DNA from: Candidatus Moraniibacteriota bacterium | Lineage (GTDB): Bacteria; Patescibacteriota; Minisyncoccia; Moranbacterales; UBA2206 | Assembly: GCA_049303795.1 (NCBI GenBank) | Contig: JBAQNM010000013.1 | Span: 2,784-66,783 of the forward strand | DNA: 64,000 nt | Direction: 5' to 3' | Part shown: positions 23,662 to 52,909 of the stretch, piece by piece | How the letters are laid out: each line of letters opens with the position of its first letter | Numbering within the stretch: position 1 is the stretch's first letter | Notes under the pieces: generated by a model | What the model saw: only the letters and a program-made list of their open reading frames with translations | Databases searched by the model: none | Told to the model about the DNA's origin: nothing | Translations under genes and position numbers: made by a program

Positions 23662-23770
23662 AATGATATAAAAATAATGGCTTATTATAGCCATTTATAT
23701 AAAAAAATAGACCCTGCTATTGATTTATTATATCAAAAATGATATAATAAAAGCATAAAAATGATATAAA
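23662..23770 (+). repeat. Three direct copies of AAAATGATATAA (23662, 23738, 23760) plus a 7-bp hairpin (AATGGCT / AGCCATT, 23676-23698)
   Basis: Read directly; between the integrase 3' end and the Fic gene. Confidence 0.45.
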
Positions 23771-23774
23771 ACTT

Positions 23775-24842
23775 ATGTTAAAAATTATAAGCAACAAACT
23801 AAATGAACGACAAAACACCACATTAGCTTTTATTGAGGCTAATAAATCTGTTTCAATTGGACAGATTTTTGAGCATATCCAGAAAGATTTTGAAAAAATT
23901 ACTAGAATTACTGTTTCTAGAGATTTGGAAAAACTGTTAAAACTGAGTCTAATTGAAAAACAAGGAGAATCAAAAAGAACGATTGTTTATCAAATATCAT
24001 CCCAATACTCAATACTAAAAAAGATTGATGTCGAAAAGTATTTTTCTGTAGACACTGACCAGAGAGAAAGCAAAGAAAAATTCAACTTTGAAATTTTCAG
24101 TCAACTGAGAGGTATCTTTACTGATGCTGAAAAAAAGAAACTCATCGAGCTGAATGAAATTTACAGAGAGAAGATAAAAGATATTGCACTAGACGCTCTC
24201 CGAAAAGAAATCGAAAGACTGAATATAGATTTCAGCTGGAAGTCTTCTAAAATCGAAGGTAACACTTATAGTCTTTTAGAAACGGAGCAACTAATTAAGA
24301 ATCAGCAGGAAGCGTCAGGTCATACTAAGGAAGAAGCAATTATGATTCTGAATCATAAAAAGACGCTAGATTACATTAGAGGCAATAAGAATGACTTTCA
24401 ATCAGTGTCTGTGGCTAAAATTGAAAATATCCACTCTCTGTTAGTAGATGGCTTAAACGTGACTAAAAATTTGAGAAAAAGTTTGGTCGGAATAACCGGA
24501 ACAAATTACAGACCATTAGACAACGAATTCCAAATTAGAGAGGCTTTGGAAAAAGCCTGTAAATTAGTGAACGAAACCAAGGATGTTTTTGAAAAAGCAG
24601 TTATTTTGATGTTGCTTATTGCATATATTCAACCATTTGTAGATGGCAATAAGAGAACAAGCCGTTTGAGCGGTAATGCCATTTTACAATCCTTTGATTC
24701 TTGTCCGTTATCTTACCGCAGTATGGATGAAATAGAATATAAAAAAGCGATTTTACTGTTTTATGAGCAGAACAACATTTCATATTTCAAGGAGCTGTTT
24801 TTAAAACAGTTTGAATTTGCTGTGGAAAATTATTTCGGATAA
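23775..24842 (+). CDS. Fic/Doc family protein with non-canonical active-site motif
   Basis: Fic motif position reads QPFVDGNKRTSR instead of HPFx(D/E)GNGRxxR; N-terminal wHTH-like region. Confidence 0.65.
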   Translation: MLKIISNKLNERQNTTLAFIEANKSVSIGQIFEHIQKDFEKITRITVSRDLEKLLKLSLIEKQGESKRTIVYQISSQYSILKKIDVEKYFSVDTDQRESKEKFNFEIFSQLRGIFTDAEKKKLIELNEIYREKIKDIALDALRKEIERLNIDFSWKSSKIEGNTYSLLETEQLIKNQQEASGHTKEEAIMILNHKKTLDYIRGNKNDFQSVSVAKIENIHSLLVDGLNVTKNLRKSLVGITGTNYRPLDNEFQIREALEKACKLVNETKDVFEKAVILMLLIAYIQPFVDGNKRTSRLSGNAILQSFDSCPLSYRSMDEIEYKKAILLFYEQNNISYFKELFLKQFEFAVENYFG

Positions 24843-32098: not shown

Positions 32099-32387
32099 CA
32101 TTAAAATTCCGAAAGGGATTTGATGAAAAGAAAACGAATTATCTATAATAGGGATGATAATATTAATTATGTTATTTCCATTTTTCATGGAATTAAAAAA
32201 TATTACAATTTTACAATTTCAGTTGAGTGATGTTTTAAAGCTAGAATTAATATCGCGACAGCTGATAATTGAAAAGTATTTTATAAATCATCTTATATTT
32301 TGTAGCAATTTAACATTGTTTTAAAAGTTGGTTAACTTTAGCTGATAATGCTATAATATAAAAAGTAATTAGTATATATTAAATCAA

Positions 32388-32915
32388 ATGAAAATAGAAA
32401 ATATCTCCGAAGAATGGTTAAAAAAACAAGAATTTGAAATTAAAAATGGCATAACGATTGATGGTGTTTTCTTGAAGGATCTGACAACTCATCTTGATGA
32501 TCGAGGTGATGTGATTGAGCTTTGGAGTGAGGGTTGGGATGAATATAAAGAAGGTTTTGTTCGACCAACAACTCATGTCTATCAAAGCGCAACTGATCCT
32601 GGTGTGGTGAAATGTTGGCATCTTCATGCAATTCACACCGATCAATTTACTGTCACAAGAGGAAAATTGCAAGTTTCTATGATTGACGTTAGAGTGGATT
32701 CGCCAACTTTTGGCCAGGCCAATAAAGTTATCTTGGGAATTCAAAAACCCAGATTTCTGAAGATTCCACCGGGAATAATGCATGGCTGGAAAGCTTTGGG
32801 AGAAGTTGAGAGTATCGTGGTTAATTTCCAGTCTCACCTGTTTGATTCGAAAGACGAATATAAATTCACTTGGGATTGTGTGCTGAAAGAAATTTGGGGA
32901 CCTAAGAATGGATAA
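32388..32915 (+). CDS. rmlC: dTDP-4-dehydrorhamnose 3,5-epimerase
   Basis: Cupin epimerase motifs (VVKCWHLHAIHTDQ, RGKLQVSMIDVR); 175 aa. Confidence 0.75.
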   Translation: MKIENISEEWLKKQEFEIKNGITIDGVFLKDLTTHLDDRGDVIELWSEGWDEYKEGFVRPTTHVYQSATDPGVVKCWHLHAIHTDQFTVTRGKLQVSMIDVRVDSPTFGQANKVILGIQKPRFLKIPPGIMHGWKALGEVESIVVNFQSHLFDSKDEYKFTWDCVLKEIWGPKNG

Positions 32916-49669: not shown

Positions 49670-50101
49670 TTGATTAGAACTATGTATAATTTAAAATCGA
49701 ACAAGCTATTTAAGATTAGCAAAGAAGAATTTGAAAGAATTGTAGCAGAAGGCATTGATGCTATTCCGGAAATATTTTTAAAAAAGTTGGATAATGTGGC
49801 GGTTTTTATTGAGAGTGAACCTAATTTAGCACAAAGAAAAAAACTAAAACTACGAAAAAATTGGACACTCCTAGGGTTATATGAAGGTGTGCCACAGACA
49901 GCTCGCGGAGCTCATTATACAAATATAGTACCGGATAAAATAACAATTTTTCAAAAACCAATTGAAGAAAGTGCGCATGATATTGATGATGTTAGGGAAA
50001 TTGTAAAAAACACAGTTTGGCATGAAATTGCACATCATTTTGGCATGGATGAAGGTCAAGTTCGAAGTGCTGAGGCAAGAAGGAAGTCAAAGAAATTTTA
50101 G
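49670..50101 (+). CDS. Zincin-like metallopeptidase (DUF1025/MMP-like minimal domain)
   Basis: C-terminal HEIAHHFGMDE HExxH motif. Confidence 0.6.
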   Translation: MIRTMYNLKSNKLFKISKEEFERIVAEGIDAIPEIFLKKLDNVAVFIESEPNLAQRKKLKLRKNWTLLGLYEGVPQTARGAHYTNIVPDKITIFQKPIEESAHDIDDVREIVKNTVWHEIAHHFGMDEGQVRSAEARRKSKKF

Positions 50102-50186
50102 TAGATTTTTTATAATTGAATGTATGAGCAAAATTATTTTATTAGCGGTACTTACGGGGTAGGGAAATCTATTAAAAAAATGTTTC

Positions 50187-50241
50187 AAGAAAAAAATAGT
50201 GCTATAATAGATATATCAAACTTGATACCGGAGGAGGTGGC
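50187..50241 (+). repeat. Repeated promoter/leader cassette, copy A (extended -10 TGCTATAAT; GGAGGAGGTGG box)
   Basis: 55 nt, ~90% identical to 52145-52199; TATAAT at 50204-50209. Confidence 0.55.
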
Positions 50242-50278
50242 TGACAAGTTGGCTGATTAATTACTAAATAGTGAATTA

Positions 50279-50935
50279 TTGATTTTTATGAGAGCATACA
50301 AAGAAATTCCATTTTTTTCAAATACTGCTGATGATAAACATTGTTTTCAAGCATCTTTGAAGATGATTATGAAATATTTTTGGCCGAGCGAGGATTATTC
50401 TTGGAAAGAGCTTGAAAAAATAACTGCAAAAATTCCCAGACTTTGGACTTGGCAAATGGCGGGATTGATTTGGCTTCAAGAAAAAGGCGTAGAAGTGAAA
50501 AACATTGAAATGTTTGATTATGAAAAGTTTATTCAATTGGGCGGAAAATATTTAATAGAAGAATATGGGGAAGAAGTTGGCAAAAGGCAAATAGAAAATA
50601 GCGACATTGAGCAAGAAAAGAAGTTGTCGAAAAAATTTATTGAAATAATTAATACTGAGAGAAGAATTCCAAATATAGATGATATAAAGCAATTGTTGTT
50701 GGATGATTACTTGATTATTACAAATATAAATTCCAGGATATTAAATAATAGGTATGGATATACTGGGCATTCTGTGGTTCTGAAAGGTTTTAGTGGGGAA
50801 GAATTTATTATAAATGATCCAGGTGGAGCTCCTGGGATAGAAAATCGCAAAGTTGATTTTGAATTATTTGAAAAGGCCTGGGGTTATCCGAATGAAAAGG
50901 CAAAAAATATAATGGCGTTTAAATTAAAAAAATAG
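50279..50935 (+). CDS. Papain-like (C39-like/BtrH-like) cysteine peptidase; tentative
   Basis: Candidate catalytic Cys (DDKHCFQASLKM) and His (GHSVVLKG). Confidence 0.35.
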   Translation: MIFMRAYKEIPFFSNTADDKHCFQASLKMIMKYFWPSEDYSWKELEKITAKIPRLWTWQMAGLIWLQEKGVEVKNIEMFDYEKFIQLGGKYLIEEYGEEVGKRQIENSDIEQEKKLSKKFIEIINTERRIPNIDDIKQLLLDDYLIITNINSRILNNRYGYTGHSVVLKGFSGEEFIINDPGGAPGIENRKVDFELFEKAWGYPNEKAKNIMAFKLKK

Positions 50936-50952
50936 CTTAACTATGTAATAAT

Positions 50953-51549
50953 ATGAACATCCAAGAATTTAAAAATTATTTAAATGAAAAAGACAAAAAA
51001 TATGTCATTTTTGATTTTGACCAAACACTGGCTACTTTGCTTATTGATTGGTCCACTTGGGGAGAAAAAATGAAAGAAATTTTTTCGTCTTATGGTATTG
51101 ATTTCGATTCTAGGAAAAGTGAATACAGCAAATACGCCGAAATTCAAAATTATTGCATTGAAAAATATGGAGATGAAGCGGAAAAAATATTTTTAGAAAT
51201 GAATCATAGACATGAGAAAGAATATTATCGTGGATATGATTTATTGCCGGCTACTCTGCCTATTTTGGATTCAATTAAAAATAATGCGAAGCTTTATCTC
51301 TGGACATCTAATAGCGCAAGAACGATTGCGCCAATACTTGAAGAATTAAAAATCGATAAGTTATTTAGCGGAATTATCACTCGCAATGATGTGAGATATA
51401 TCAAACCCAATCCAGAAGGTTTTTTTTTGATCTATGATAAAAATATTCCAAAATCACAGTATCTTTTTATTGGAGACAGCCTTGCGGATATTGGTGCCGG
51501 AATAAATTCCGGGATTGATTTTATAAATATAGCGGAATTTAAATTATGA
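50953..51549 (+). CDS. HAD-superfamily hydrolase
   Basis: Motif I FDFDQTL (DxDxT); later KPNPE and GDSLADIGAG. Confidence 0.7.
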   Translation: MNIQEFKNYLNEKDKKYVIFDFDQTLATLLIDWSTWGEKMKEIFSSYGIDFDSRKSEYSKYAEIQNYCIEKYGDEAEKIFLEMNHRHEKEYYRGYDLLPATLPILDSIKNNAKLYLWTSNSARTIAPILEELKIDKLFSGIITRNDVRYIKPNPEGFFLIYDKNIPKSQYLFIGDSLADIGAGINSGIDFINIAEFKL

Positions 51550-51557
51550 AAAATTAA

Positions 51558-52157
51558 ATGAACAAAAAAGATCAAACAATTGATACTTACAATAAAAGCG
51601 CCTCATCTTTAGCTGATAGATTTAATAAATTTGGCGTAAGAATCAATGATGTTAAAGAGGGTTTTTCGTATATTTCGAAGAAAAATCCATTTGTTTTAGA
51701 AATTGGTTGCGCCAATGGAAGGGATGCGAAAGAAATATTAAAATATACCAATAATTATTTAGGGATTGATATTTCAGAAGAGTTGATTAAAATTGCCAAA
51801 CAAAATATATCAAAAGGAAAATTCAAAGTAGCTGATGTTGAAGATTATATTTTTCCTAAGAATATCGACATGATATTTTCTTTTGCTTCACTCATACATT
51901 CAAATAGAAATAATCTCCAAAAAATATTAAACGAAGCGCATGAATCCTTGAATGTGGGAGGGATTTTTTATATTTCAATGAAGTATGGCGAATATCAAGA
52001 ATCAACCAAGGAAGACGAATTTGGAATAAGAACTTATTATTTTTATACTTCAGAAGATATTAGGAAAATTATTGGCAGTAGTTATGAAATTATTAGGGAA
52101 AATGTTTATGATTTACGAGGGCAAGACTTGATATCAATAATATTAAGAAAAAAATAG
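51558..52157 (+). CDS. Class I SAM-dependent methyltransferase
   Basis: Motif I VLEIGCANGRD, acidic motif II, NVGG. Confidence 0.7.
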   Translation: MNKKDQTIDTYNKSASSLADRFNKFGVRINDVKEGFSYISKKNPFVLEIGCANGRDAKEILKYTNNYLGIDISEELIKIAKQNISKGKFKVADVEDYIFPKNIDMIFSFASLIHSNRNNLQKILNEAHESLNVGGIFYISMKYGEYQESTKEDEFGIRTYYFYTSEDIRKIIGSSYEIIRENVYDLRGQDLISIILRKK

Positions 52158-52199
52158 TGCTATAATAGATACATCGCACTTGACGCCGGAGGAGGTGGC
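52145..52199 (+). repeat. Repeated promoter/leader cassette, copy B
   Basis: ~90% identical to 50187-50241; TATAAT at 52161-52166. Confidence 0.55.
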
Positions 52200-52240
52200 G
52201 GGGGAAGTTGTTAATTTAATTATTAAGTAAAAATAAGCTC

Positions 52241-52909
52241 ATGCATAAATTTCATGAAGATCCGTATTTAAAAGAAATTAAAACTACTATCACTGGAATA
52301 TTTAACGAAAATGAAAAAAATTGTGTTCAGGTCGCAGAGAATATTTTCTATCCTCAGGGTGGTGGGCAAAAAGGTGATAGAGGTAAATTGATTATTGACG
52401 GTATGAGTTATGATGTTGTGGATACTATAAAAGACGCATATAATGAAGATGGAATTTTGCTTATAACGGCTGAAAAAATTCCAGATGATGCGAAAGGAAA
52501 AACAATTGATTGTAAGCTTGATTGGGAATTTCGCAATAAACAAATGAAATTGCATACAGCAGTTCATTTACATCATTGTTTATTGGAAAAAACTACTGGC
52601 AAATCATTGCCATTTCCTAAAGTTTCTGCTATTCAGGATGGTTTTGCCTTTAATCGATATGAAAGCGATGAAATTACGCCTGAGCTTGTTGAAAAAACTA
52701 ATCAAGTTTTTTGTGAGATGATTGCCTCAGGAGCGGAGGTAAAAACCTATCCAGATACTAAAAAGAAAGAGTTTCGCTTTTGGGAATGTTTAGGATATAA
52801 AATTCCTTGCGGTGGAACACATGTCAAAAATATTTCTGAAATAGGTAATGTTGAAATCGCATATAATAAAAAGAAAGGTATGCCGACTGTGAATATTAAA
52901 TTAAAATAA
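52241..52909 (+). CDS. AlaX-like alanyl-tRNA editing protein (tRNA_SAD domain)
   Basis: HxxxH (HTAVHLHHC) and CGGTHV zinc motifs. Confidence 0.7.
   Translation: MHKFHEDPYLKEIKTTITGIFNENEKNCVQVAENIFYPQGGGQKGDRGKLIIDGMSYDVVDTIKDAYNEDGILLITAEKIPDDAKGKTIDCKLDWEFRNKQMKLHTAVHLHHCLLEKTTGKSLPFPKVSAIQDGFAFNRYESDEITPELVEKTNQVFCEMIASGAEVKTYPDTKKKEFRFWECLGYKIPCGGTHVKNISEIGNVEIAYNKKKGMPTVNIKLK

What the first reader, a model, noticed from the sequence alone, without database searches (positions are those of the whole stretch)
50187..52199. Promoter/leader cassette of about 55 nt (TGCTATAAT extended -10 plus GGAGGAGGTGG box) duplicated upstream of two unrelated genes 2 kb apart
AAGAAAAAAATAGTGCTATAATAGATA.ATC..ACTTGA..CCGGAGGAGGTGGC occurs at 50187-50241 (before a C39-like peptidase gene) and at 52145-52199 (before an AlaX-like gene) with about 90% identity. 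The SD-like box lies about 40 nt upstream of each annotated start and is followed by a GTG-initiated mini-ORF (7 and 11 codons). This points to a shared regulatory module with a leader peptide or standby site, or a small repeat element that carries its own promoter. The 5' palindrome TATCAAACTTGATA is present in copy A only.
Basis: seen in the sequence. Interest (0 to 1): 0.55.

Follow-up and report, generated by a model that had tools for sequence, protein, structure and literature searches.

The report
Two leftover tails of a dead kinase gene
The 55-base repeat is real, but it is the leftover 3' coding end of a decayed small kinase-like gene present twice, so the "ribosome-binding box" is old Pro-Glu-Glu-Val-Ala codons, and at most the remnants may still act as promoters.

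Summary
Bases 50187-50241 and 52145-52199 match at 50 of 55 positions, occur only twice in the window, and are far beyond chance.

The interpretation mostly fails. In one shared reading frame, copy A lies in a 46-codon ORF (50120-50260) and copy B in a 27-codon open frame (52147-52230). Both align colinearly with the C-terminal tail of a ~180-aa P-loop (Pfam AAA_18) kinase-like family, consensus ...N..IIDTSNLTPEEVA..VV.I.... TGCTATAAT is the codons Ser-Ala-Ile-Ile(-Asp). CCGGAGGAGGTGGC is Pro-Glu-Glu-Val-Ala. The "GTG mini-ORFs" are the ends of that frame.

Copy B has orthologues upstream of AlaX in three related Candidatus Moraniibacteriota contigs. One carries an in-frame stop, and the GGAGG box varies at 5 of 14 columns. 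The genome hardly uses Shine-Dalgarno sites (6 of 69 crude genes). I found no RNA family, fold or covariation, and no dispersed copies.

Still possible but untested: TGYTATAAT is intact in all five copies and may act as a promoter. The last 24 nt before the AlaX ATG are invariant and probably form its A/U-rich initiation region.

Ordinary gene-decay relics; low interest.

The parts
50187..50241 (+). Repeat copy A (55 nt)
   Evidence: 50 of 55 positions identical to copy B. It lies wholly inside the 46-codon remnant ORF.
52145..52199 (+). Repeat copy B (55 nt)
   Evidence: Its first 13 nt overlap the last codons and the TAG stop of the methyltransferase gene (51558-52157).
50120..50260 (+). Remnant A: a 46-codon ORF (MYEQNYFISGTYGVGKSIKKMFQEKNSAIIDISNLIPEEVADKLAD*). 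It is the C-terminal tail of a decayed AAA_18-type P-loop kinase-like gene. NCBI annotates it as hypothetical protein WAV31_02280.
   Evidence: Residues 5-46 align ungapped with the C-terminal ~42 residues of family members P0004, P0005, P0006 and P0009. tblastn of P0004 against the window gave E = 2.5e-7. The ORF lacks the N-terminal P-loop core. The 'GVGKS' inside it aligns to the tail region, not to the Walker A motif.
52147..52230 (+). Remnant B: a 27-codon open frame with no start codon (EKNSAIIDTSHLTPEEVAGEVVNLIIK*), preceded by an in-frame TAA. It is the last 27 codons of the same gene family, cut off on its 5' side by the methyltransferase gene.
   Evidence: tblastn E = 3e-6 for P0004 and 6e-5 for P0005. 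Orthologous fragments lie upstream of AlaX in L018, L019 and L009/L014; L018 carries an in-frame TAA.
50200..50208 (+). TGCTATAAT in copy A: an extended -10 look-alike that is also the codons (A)GT GCT ATA AT(A) of Ser-Ala-Ile-Ile
   Evidence: No -35 match was listed by the promoter scan.
52158..52166 (+). TGCTATAAT in copy B, with the same dual reading
   Evidence: It is conserved as TGYTATAAT in all four AlaX-upstream orthologues.
50228..50241 (+). CCGGAGGAGGTGGC in copy A: codons Pro-Glu-Glu-Val-Ala, not an SD site
   Evidence: The family consensus is TPEEVA / TPKEV.
52186..52199 (+). CCGGAGGAGGTGGC in copy B: codons Pro-Glu-Glu-Val-Ala
   Evidence: It reads CTAGGAGAAGTGGT in L009 and CCGGAGGAAGTGGT in L018; 5 of 14 columns vary among the orthologues.
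52213..52236 (+). AATTTAATTATTAAGTAAAAATAA: the last codons and stop of remnant B plus the spacer, ending 4 nt before the AlaX ATG. Probably the A/U-rich translation-initiation region of AlaX.
   Evidence: It is a 24-nt run invariant in all four species. In the same species only 66% of A/T third-codon positions of AlaX are invariant, and the longest invariant run of third positions is 8. Its A-rich composition is typical of the sequence before start codons in this window.
50214..50227 (+). Palindrome TATCAAACTTGATA, in copy A only
   Evidence: It arises from GC-to-AT substitutions specific to copy A and is absent from copy B and from L019 and L009. No function is indicated.

Best explanation
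Both copies are remnants of the 3' coding end of a small (~180 aa) P-loop kinase-like gene of Pfam AAA_18 type. That gene has decayed in this Candidatus Moraniibacteriota lineage.

Remnant B (27 codons) sits between the methyltransferase gene and AlaX and is old. The same fragment lies in front of AlaX in at least three related species. Remnant A (46 codons, still called as an ORF) sits between the Zincin-like and C39-like genes and is known only from this species. Because A retains more of the gene than B does, it must come from a second, paralogous copy, or from a duplication older than the truncation of B. It cannot be a recent copy of present-day B.

The two 'regulatory' boxes are coding relics. 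TGCTATAAT is Ser-Ala-Ile-Ile(-Asp). CCGGAGGAGGTGGC is Pro-Glu-Glu-Val-Ala, a motif kept in intact family members.

Inferred, not shown: the tails persist because the ancestral kinase stop lay only ~10 nt before the downstream start codon. The tail would then carry the downstream gene's A/U-rich translation-initiation region and possibly an extended -10 promoter. The GGAGG box itself has no present role.
For: 1. Protein homology. A profile of the two in-frame translations was searched against 1.84 billion representative proteins. It recovered full-length 179-189 aa AAA_18 P-loop proteins (P0009, P0007) and shorter fragments of the same family (P0004, P0005, P0006), E = 2e-6 to 7e-4. All matched through their C-terminal tails.
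2. Reciprocal search. tblastn of P0004 against the window and fetched loci hit the window only at 50138-50272 (E = 2.5e-7) and 52153-52224 (E = 3e-6).
3. Colinearity. The alignment is colinear and ungapped up to the family's natural C-terminus.
4. Orthologues of B. Copies lie upstream of AlaX in L018 and L019 (AlaX 91% identical) and in L009/L014 (87%). L018 has an in-frame TAA and a 3-nt insertion. L009 has Pro-Glu changed to Leu-Gly. This is pseudogene behaviour.
5. Near-neutral decay overall. 60 of 87 remnant columns are invariant across the four species. The AlaX comparison values are 0.59 at third codon positions and 0.90 at second positions.
6. Local constraint. Two runs are invariant: a 24-nt block just before the AlaX ATG and the 11-nt TATAATAGATA.
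7. SD usage is rare: 6 of 69 crude genes. The anti-SD motif is detected in only 48% of Parcubacteria 16S rRNAs (PMC9297842).
8. The genes between the repeats are not one cassette. HAD is orthologous to the HAD gene in L009, and the methyltransferase to that in L018, each in a different arrangement.
Against: The 55-nt core is better conserved than neutral sites: 9% difference between A and B, and 5% between B and L019. Fourfold-degenerate sites of AlaX differ by about 21-31% between these species. That suggests either selection on the core, for example as a promoter and initial transcribed region, or gene conversion between A and B. Plain neutral decay does not fully explain it.

No genome with an intact kinase directly upstream of AlaX was found, so the ancestral arrangement is inferred.

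The peptides are short and the E-values modest (1e-4 to 1e-7).

Only 64 kb of this genome plus the fetched loci could be searched for further copies.
Confidence: 0.8

Rival explanations
1. Shared regulatory cassette. An extended -10 promoter is followed by a leader in which the GGAGGAGGTGG box acts as an SD, standby or ribosome-loading site. A short leader peptide would then control the C39-like and AlaX-like operons in the same way.
For: TGYTATAAT is intact in all five copies. The box is identical in A, B and L019. A TTG lies 10-11 nt after GGAGGTG in A and B, followed by two codons and TAA. The 55-nt core is more conserved than fourfold-degenerate sites.
Against: The box varies at 5 of 14 columns among the orthologues (CTAGGAGAAGTGGT in L009, GGAAGTGGT in L018), and the mini-ORFs are not conserved: TTG TGA in L018 and L019, no TTG in L009. 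The GTG 'start' lies inside the box. Only 6 of 69 crude genes in the window have an SD-like core. Many Parcubacteria lack the anti-SD motif. The box is fully explained as the conserved PEEVA codons of the kinase family.
Confidence: 0.1
2. Recent local duplication or gene conversion with no function at all. The similarity of A and B reflects only recent sequence exchange between two pseudogene fragments.
For: There are only two copies. The boundaries are sharp and the flanks are not significantly similar. A and B share the box exactly, while the orthologues L018 and L009 have diverged.
Against: A carries 23 more family-homologous codons than B, so it cannot be a copy of present-day B. L019, a different species, is as close to A (3 differences in 42 nt) and to B (2 in 42) as A and B are to each other. 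Exchange within this genome alone therefore does not explain the conservation.
Confidence: 0.2
3. Small mobile or dispersed repeat (REP- or MITE-like) that carries an outward promoter.
For: It is a short direct repeat in intergenic gaps, with a palindrome in copy A.
Against: There are two copies in 64 kb and one per related locus. A JGI metagenome-wide pattern scan returned one locus, from the L009 organism. There are no terminal inverted repeats or target duplications. The palindrome is in A only. The sequence has coding ancestry.
Confidence: 0.02
4. Structured cis-regulatory RNA, such as a riboswitch, T-box-like element or attenuator, shared by the two operons.
For: AlaX is a tRNA-related gene, and the repeat lies in a putative 5' leader.
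Against: There are no Rfam matches at gathering threshold in the window, and none overlapping the repeats at E up to 10. Single-sequence fold z-scores range from +0.59 to -0.62. RNAalifold found 7 pairs at -5.3 kcal/mol with one compensatory case.
Confidence: 0.02
5. ORF46 (50120-50260) encodes a functional micro-protein derived from the kinase tail.
For: The frame is open for 46 codons with an ATG. Gene callers predict it. Short tail-only ORFs of the same family are called in L015 and L017.
Against: The tails are truncated at different points and are preceded by in-frame stops. Copy A's own changes are mostly non-synonymous GC-to-AT changes away from the family consensus (Thr to Ile twice). 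Its end (DKLAD*) departs from the family pattern VV.I. No homologues at 90% clustering other than itself were found.
Confidence: 0.05

Closest known systems
Pseudogene remnants left by reductive genome evolution in small bacterial genomes
   Same: These are short, truncated fragments of a recognisable protein family. They sit in the only two long gaps (186 and 83 nt) of an otherwise tightly packed same-strand gene array. They lack the catalytic core, and one orthologue carries an in-frame stop.
   Different: The tail is kept in two places in one genome, and kept upstream of AlaX across at least four species. Local conservation there exceeds the neutral proxy, which hints at secondary use.
Small P-loop nucleoside/nucleotide-kinase-like proteins (Pfam AAA_18; distant to NCBIfam PRK03839 'putative kinase' and to the gluconokinase and adenylate kinase group)
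   Same: The remnants align with the C-terminal tail ...N..(I/V)(I/V)DTS.LTP(E/K)EV...V..I of 179-189 aa members P0009 and P0007.
   Different: Only the last 27-46 codons remain, with no Walker A motif and no core. The family itself is uncharacterised: PDB sequence matches are marginal, E = 0.06 or worse.
Extended -10 (TGnTATAAT) sigma-70 promoters embedded in the 3' end of an upstream gene
   Same: There is a perfect TGYTATAAT with no recognisable -35, conserved in all five copies. Comparable sites lie 35-39 nt before other start codons in the window.
   Different: Activity is untested. The leader would be ~70-75 nt, longer than at the other candidate sites. The conservation run (11 nt) is not significant on its own.
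Leader-peptide attenuators and ribosome standby sites
   Same: There is a G-rich SD-like sequence about 40 nt upstream of the start codon, followed by very short ORFs.
   Different: The box and the mini-ORFs are not conserved in the orthologues. The genome rarely uses SD sites. No terminator or antiterminator structure is present.

Membership tests
Remnant (pseudogene fragment) of an AAA_18-type P-loop kinase-like gene | Significant protein-level similarity to intact family members | tested here: met
   The profile search hit P0004-P0007 and P0009 at E = 2e-6 to 7e-4 against 1.84 billion proteins. Reciprocal tblastn gave E = 2.5e-7 for copy A and 3e-6 for copy B, with no other hit in the window for P0004.
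Remnant (pseudogene fragment) of an AAA_18-type P-loop kinase-like gene | Colinear alignment in one frame, ending at the family's natural C-terminus | tested here: met
   Ungapped alignment to P0009 residues 133-174 and P0005 residues 7-53. The stop of B falls where family members end.
Remnant (pseudogene fragment) of an AAA_18-type P-loop kinase-like gene | Loss of the essential parts (Walker A motif and core), or disabling mutations | tested here: met
   Only 46 and 27 codons remain, with in-frame stops just upstream. The L018 orthologue has an internal TAA.
Remnant (pseudogene fragment) of an AAA_18-type P-loop kinase-like gene | An intact gene at the same position in a related genome | tested here: not met
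   None of the AlaX-linked loci L009-L013, L018-L020 or L024 carries an intact kinase upstream of AlaX. The sampling is small.
Sigma-70 extended -10 promoter | TGnTATAAT motif | tested here: met
   50200-50208 and 52158-52166. It reads TGYTATAAT in all five copies.
Sigma-70 extended -10 promoter | Transcription start about 7 nt downstream, with activity dependent on the motif | not testable with these tools
   No transcriptome or reporter data are available. The promoter scan did not list either site because neither has a -35 match.
Shine-Dalgarno / standby site with leader peptide | Box conserved in orthologous leaders | tested here: not met
   5 of 14 columns vary among the four AlaX-upstream copies.
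Shine-Dalgarno / standby site with leader peptide | Conserved short ORF correctly spaced from the SD | tested here: not met
   The GTG lies inside the box. The TTG-initiated 3-codon frames of A and B become TTG TGA in L018 and L019 and are absent in L009.
Shine-Dalgarno / standby site with leader peptide | The organism uses SD-led initiation | tested here: not met
   6 of 69 crude genes have an SD-like core, and the typical upstream sequence is A-rich. The 16S rRNA 3' end is not in the window. The literature reports the anti-SD motif in only 48% of Parcubacteria.
Dispersed repeat element (REP / MITE-like) | Many copies per genome in varied contexts | tested here: not met
   Two copies in 64 kb, one per related locus, and one locus in the JGI metagenome scan. 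The rest of this genome could not be searched.
Structured cis-regulatory RNA (riboswitch / T-box) | Match to a known family, or a stable covarying structure | tested here: not met
   No Rfam match. Fold z-scores are near zero. The consensus structure has 7 pairs at -5.3 kcal/mol with one compensatory pair.

The most novel reading that the evidence does not exclude
The kinase tail has been exapted as a portable expression module. When the gene was lost, its last ~90 nt survived twice in this genome, and upstream of AlaX in several species, because it carries an internal extended -10 promoter and the A/U-rich initiation region of whatever gene lies downstream. Tail-only fragments of the same family in front of a HAD hydrolase gene (L015) and an Orn/Arg decarboxylase gene (L017) would then be further instances. 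This would be a general route by which SD-poor, highly reduced CPR genomes keep expression signals embedded in the 3' ends of dead genes.
Probability: 0.25. Interest if true: 0.4.

Novelty: new member of a known kind. Interest (0 to 1): 0.18.

Why it matters
This is mainly a caution for sequence-only scanning. In an AT-rich genome, a G-rich island that looks like a strong ribosome-binding site, next to a perfect extended -10, can be nothing more than old codons (Pro-Glu-Glu-Val-Ala and Ser-Ala-Ile-Ile).

Biologically, it documents gene decay and rapid gene turnover at one locus of Candidatus Moraniibacteriota. It also gives a small, testable example of how the 3' end of a lost gene may be kept because the downstream gene's start signals, and perhaps its promoter, lie inside it. 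If transcriptomes confirmed promoter activity, it would be a tidy case of exaptation. It would not be a new kind of system.

Tried and rejected
- **N-terminus/C-terminus fusion.** I first read ORF46 as an internally deleted kinase, with a Walker A 'GVGKS' N-terminus fused to the C-terminus. MAFFT and tblastn showed the whole ORF aligns ungapped to the C-terminal tail only, so I dropped this.
- **Curated family scans of the short peptides.** Pfam and NCBIfam gave only sub-threshold hints: Cytidylate_kin E = 0.17, PRK03839 E = 0.1.
- **Word-indexed protein search.** A hybrid peptide found only ORF46 itself.
- **Known RNA families.** Rfam at gathering threshold and at E up to 10 gave nothing on the repeats.
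- **RNA structure.** Single-sequence folds and the consensus fold showed no structure above background.
- **Mobile cassette between the repeats.** I rejected the idea that the repeats flank an inserted three-gene cassette. HAD and the methyltransferase are orthologous to genes at the same locus in L009 and L018. The C39-like relatives (69% identity or less) in L021-L023 have no remnant.
- **Homology extending into the methyltransferase 3' end.** The 'GKT*YQ*Y*' versus 'GKSIKKMFQ' resemblance is not significant: p = 0.07, about 47% identity in AT-rich DNA.
- **Polymorphism within the species.** Same-species contigs L001-L008 are identical in both copies and gave no information.
- **More distant AlaX relatives.** Those at 72-77% identity (L010, L013, L020, L024) have no remnant.
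Full report
**1.

Bases 50187-50241 and 52145-52199 are direct repeats on the + strand, 55 nt long, with 50 of 55 positions identical. The first 27 nt (AAGAAAAAAATAGTGCTATAATAGATA) and the last 14 nt (CCGGAGGAGGTGGC) are identical. Each occurs exactly twice in the 64-kb window, even allowing 3 and 2 mismatches, against 0.00 and 0.05 expected from shuffles.

Pfam gives Peptidase_C39_2 for 50288-50935 and tRNA_SAD / AlaX-like for 52241-52909.

The genes here form a same-strand array:

| Gene | Coordinates |
|---|---|
| Zincin_1 | 49670-50101 |
| C39-like | 50288-50935 |
| HAD | 50953-51549 |
| Methyltransferase | 51558-52157 |
| AlaX-like | 52241-52909 |

Spacers within this array are otherwise 8-18 nt. 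The two repeats sit in the only two long gaps, 186 and 83 nt. The methyltransferase stop codon lies inside copy B.

**2. What it is**

Gene callers place a 46-codon ORF at 50120-50260, and it contains copy A in frame:

- ORF46: MYEQNYFISGTYGVGKSIKKMFQEKNSAIIDISNLIPEEVADKLAD*

Read in the same frame, copy B is also open, bounded by stops:

- Copy B: *EKNSAIIDTSHLTPEEVAGEVVNLIIK*

I built a profile from these two translations (alignment A3) and searched it against 1.84 billion representative proteins. Besides ORF46 itself and three long proteins matched at many stretches (P0002, P0003, P0008; not examined), it returned five proteins:

| Protein | Length | E-value | Description |
|---|---|---|---|
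| P0009 | 179 aa | 6.7e-4 | full-length P-loop protein |
| P0007 | 189 aa | 2.0e-4 | full-length P-loop protein |
| P0006 | 116 aa | 1.9e-4 | shorter member |
| P0005 | 69 aa | 3.6e-5 | shorter member |
| P0004 | 51 aa | 2.4e-6 | shorter member |

P0009 reaches the Pfam AAA_18 gathering score (31.4 bits against 29.4). P0007 matches AAA_18 just below it (24.9 bits). P0007 also has weak similarity to NCBIfam PRK03839 'putative kinase' and to gluconokinase.

All five match through their C-terminal tail. For example, P0009 ends ...NFIDDSVNFAKQMKNIFVKNNCPVVDTSKLTPKEVSKVVADIITTGTD. The multiple alignment is colinear and ungapped. The reciprocal test also holds: tblastn of P0004 against the window and all fetched loci hits the window only at 50138-50272 (E = 2.5e-7) and 52153-52224 (E = 3e-6).

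The 'regulatory' motifs therefore have a coding origin:

- TGCTATAAT is (A)GT GCT ATA AT(A), the codons of Ser-Ala-Ile-Ile that precede Asp.
- CCGGAGGAGGTGGC is CCG GAG GAG GTG GC(N), which is Pro-Glu-Glu-Val-Ala. This is the most conserved motif of the family tail (TPEEVA).

I first took 'GVGKS' in ORF46 for a Walker A motif and assumed an internal deletion. The alignments show that it belongs to the tail region, so I withdrew that reading.

**3. Relatives**

The organism is a Candidatus Moraniibacteriota (Parcubacteria, CPR). Same-species contigs from several samples are identical in both copies.

Copy B has orthologues directly upstream of AlaX in three related species:

| Locus | AlaX identity | Gene order |
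|---|---|---|
| L018 | 91% | LigT - Cupin - methyltransferase - remnant - AlaX |
| L019 | 91% | remnant - AlaX (contig starts in the remnant) |
| L009 / L014 | 87% | LigT - HAD - EamA - ATPase - remnant - AlaX |

Their translations show decay:

- L019: SAIIDTSNLTPEEVAEGVVNLIIK*, closest to the family consensus.
- L009: ...TSNLTLGEVVEGVV..., with Pro-Glu changed to Leu-Gly.
- L018: ...SVIIDI*SLMPEEVVKEVVVNLIIK*, with an in-frame stop and a 3-nt insertion.

AlaX relatives at 72-77% identity (L010, L013, L020, L024) have no remnant. C39-like relatives are at most 69% identical, lie in other contexts, and have no remnant. A scan of the JGI metagenome collection for TGCTATAATAGATANATCNNACTTGA found a single locus, from the L009 organism. 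The element is therefore confined to a narrow clade and is not a dispersed repeat.

The window's HAD gene is orthologous to the HAD gene of L009 (83% amino-acid identity). Its methyltransferase is orthologous to that of L018 (86.5%). The three genes between the repeats are thus not one inserted or duplicated cassette. Only remnant A plus the C39-like gene is peculiar to this species.

Remnant A keeps 23 more family-homologous codons than B. The junction between B and the methyltransferase is shared with L018. So A cannot be a recent copy of present-day B. It must derive from a second gene copy or from an older duplication.

**4. Constraint**

Across the four AlaX-upstream copies, 60 of 87 columns are invariant (0.69). 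The comparison values from AlaX in the same four species are:

| Site class in AlaX | Fraction invariant |
|---|---|
| Third codon positions, all | 0.59 |
| Third positions, A/T | 0.66 |
| Third positions, G/C | 0.33 |
| Fourfold-degenerate sites | 0.50 |
| Second codon positions | 0.90 |

Decay of the remnant is therefore close to neutral overall, but it is uneven:

- The PEEVA box varies at 5 of 14 columns.
- TATAATAGATA is an 11-nt invariant run, and TGYTATAAT is intact in all five copies. This is suggestive but not significant on its own.
- The 24 nt AATTTAATTATTAAGTAAAAATAA (52213-52236) are invariant. They comprise the last codons, the stop and the spacer just before the AlaX ATG. With 0.66 invariance per site I estimate the chance of such a run at about 5e-5 per position. 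The longest invariant run of third codon positions is 8.
- That block is A/U-rich, like the sequence before most start codons in this window. I read it as AlaX's translation-initiation region, which originally overlapped the 3' end of the kinase gene.

The 55-nt core also differs less than fourfold-degenerate sites do: A and B differ at 5 of 55 positions, and B and L019 at 2 of 42, against about 21-31% at fourfold sites. Some selection, for example for promoter function, or gene conversion is therefore likely. The flanks of A and B are not significantly similar.

**5. Why the SD, leader, standby, riboswitch and mobile-repeat readings fail**

- Only 6 of 69 crude gene calls have an SD-like core. 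The anti-SD motif is reported in only 48% of Parcubacteria 16S rRNAs (PMC9297842).
- The box and the mini-ORFs are not conserved in the orthologues.
- There is no Rfam match.
- Fold z-scores range from +0.59 to -0.62. The consensus fold has 7 pairs at -5.3 kcal/mol with one compensatory pair.
- No terminator-like hairpin lies in either leader.
- Copy number is two.

**6. Mechanism I commit to**

Shown:
- The repeats are two homologous remnants of the C-terminal coding end of a decayed AAA_18-type kinase-like gene.
- The box is a codon relic.
- Remnant B is old and decaying.

Inferred, at roughly even odds:
- The tails persist because they hold the downstream gene's A/U-rich initiation region.
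- They also hold an extended -10 promoter. TGNTATAAT sites 35-39 nt upstream of two other start codons in the window suggest that this promoter type is used here.

Not resolved:
- Whether the close A-B similarity reflects selection or gene conversion.
- Where remnant A came from.

**7. Verdict**

This is a real repeat with an ordinary origin: gene-decay relics that were misread as a regulatory cassette. It is a new member of a known kind and of low interest. The modest open question is whether the tail has been exapted as a promoter.

Noticed in passing
window 1-64000: Shine-Dalgarno-like cores precede only 6 of 69 crude ATG-started ORFs. Most starts follow A-rich stretches such as AAATAAAAAATT. 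This fits SD-independent initiation in this Parcubacteria genome.
   Followed up: partly
L018:965-2646; L009:443-4255; window 49670-52240: The region upstream of AlaX turns over genes rapidly among close relatives. L018 has LigT-Cupin-methyltransferase, L009 has LigT-HAD-EamA-ATPase(DUF234-like), and the window has Zincin-remnant-C39-HAD-methyltransferase. In every case the same kinase-tail remnant abuts AlaX.
   Followed up: partly
L015:398-553 and L017:158-397: Tail-only fragments of the same kinase-like family, 51 and 69 aa as called, preceded by in-frame stops, occur in unrelated contigs. One lies directly before a HAD hydrolase gene that is followed by a nucleoside phosphorylase gene (L015). 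The other lies before an Orn/Arg decarboxylase gene (L017). Survival of only the 3' tail seems to recur.
   Followed up: partly
L019:1 and L002:1: Two assemblies break at or next to the repeat. The L019 contig starts exactly at GTGCTATAAT, and the NCBI MAG contig (L002/L006) starts about 30 nt before copy A. This may reflect strain-level variation in upstream gene content, or further repeat copies in those genomes.
   Followed up: no
window 50120-50935: ORF46 and the C39-like gene are in the same reading frame, separated by a single TAA (50258-50260) and nine sense codons. This is probably coincidence (1 in 3).
   Followed up: no
window 23727-23748: Two TGATATAAT extended -10-like sites lie on opposite strands 13 nt apart, in the 156-nt gap before the gene starting at 23775. 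Another TGCTATAAT at 32349 lies 39 nt before the start at 32388. These are candidate genuine promoters.
   Followed up: no
window 1-64000: No Rfam family reached its gathering score anywhere in the 64 kb. That means no tRNA, rRNA, riboswitch or other known RNA.
   Followed up: no
L018:1-808: About 800 nt upstream of the LigT-like gene contain only short ORFs of 81 aa or less. This could be a decayed or non-coding stretch; I did not examine it.
   Followed up: no
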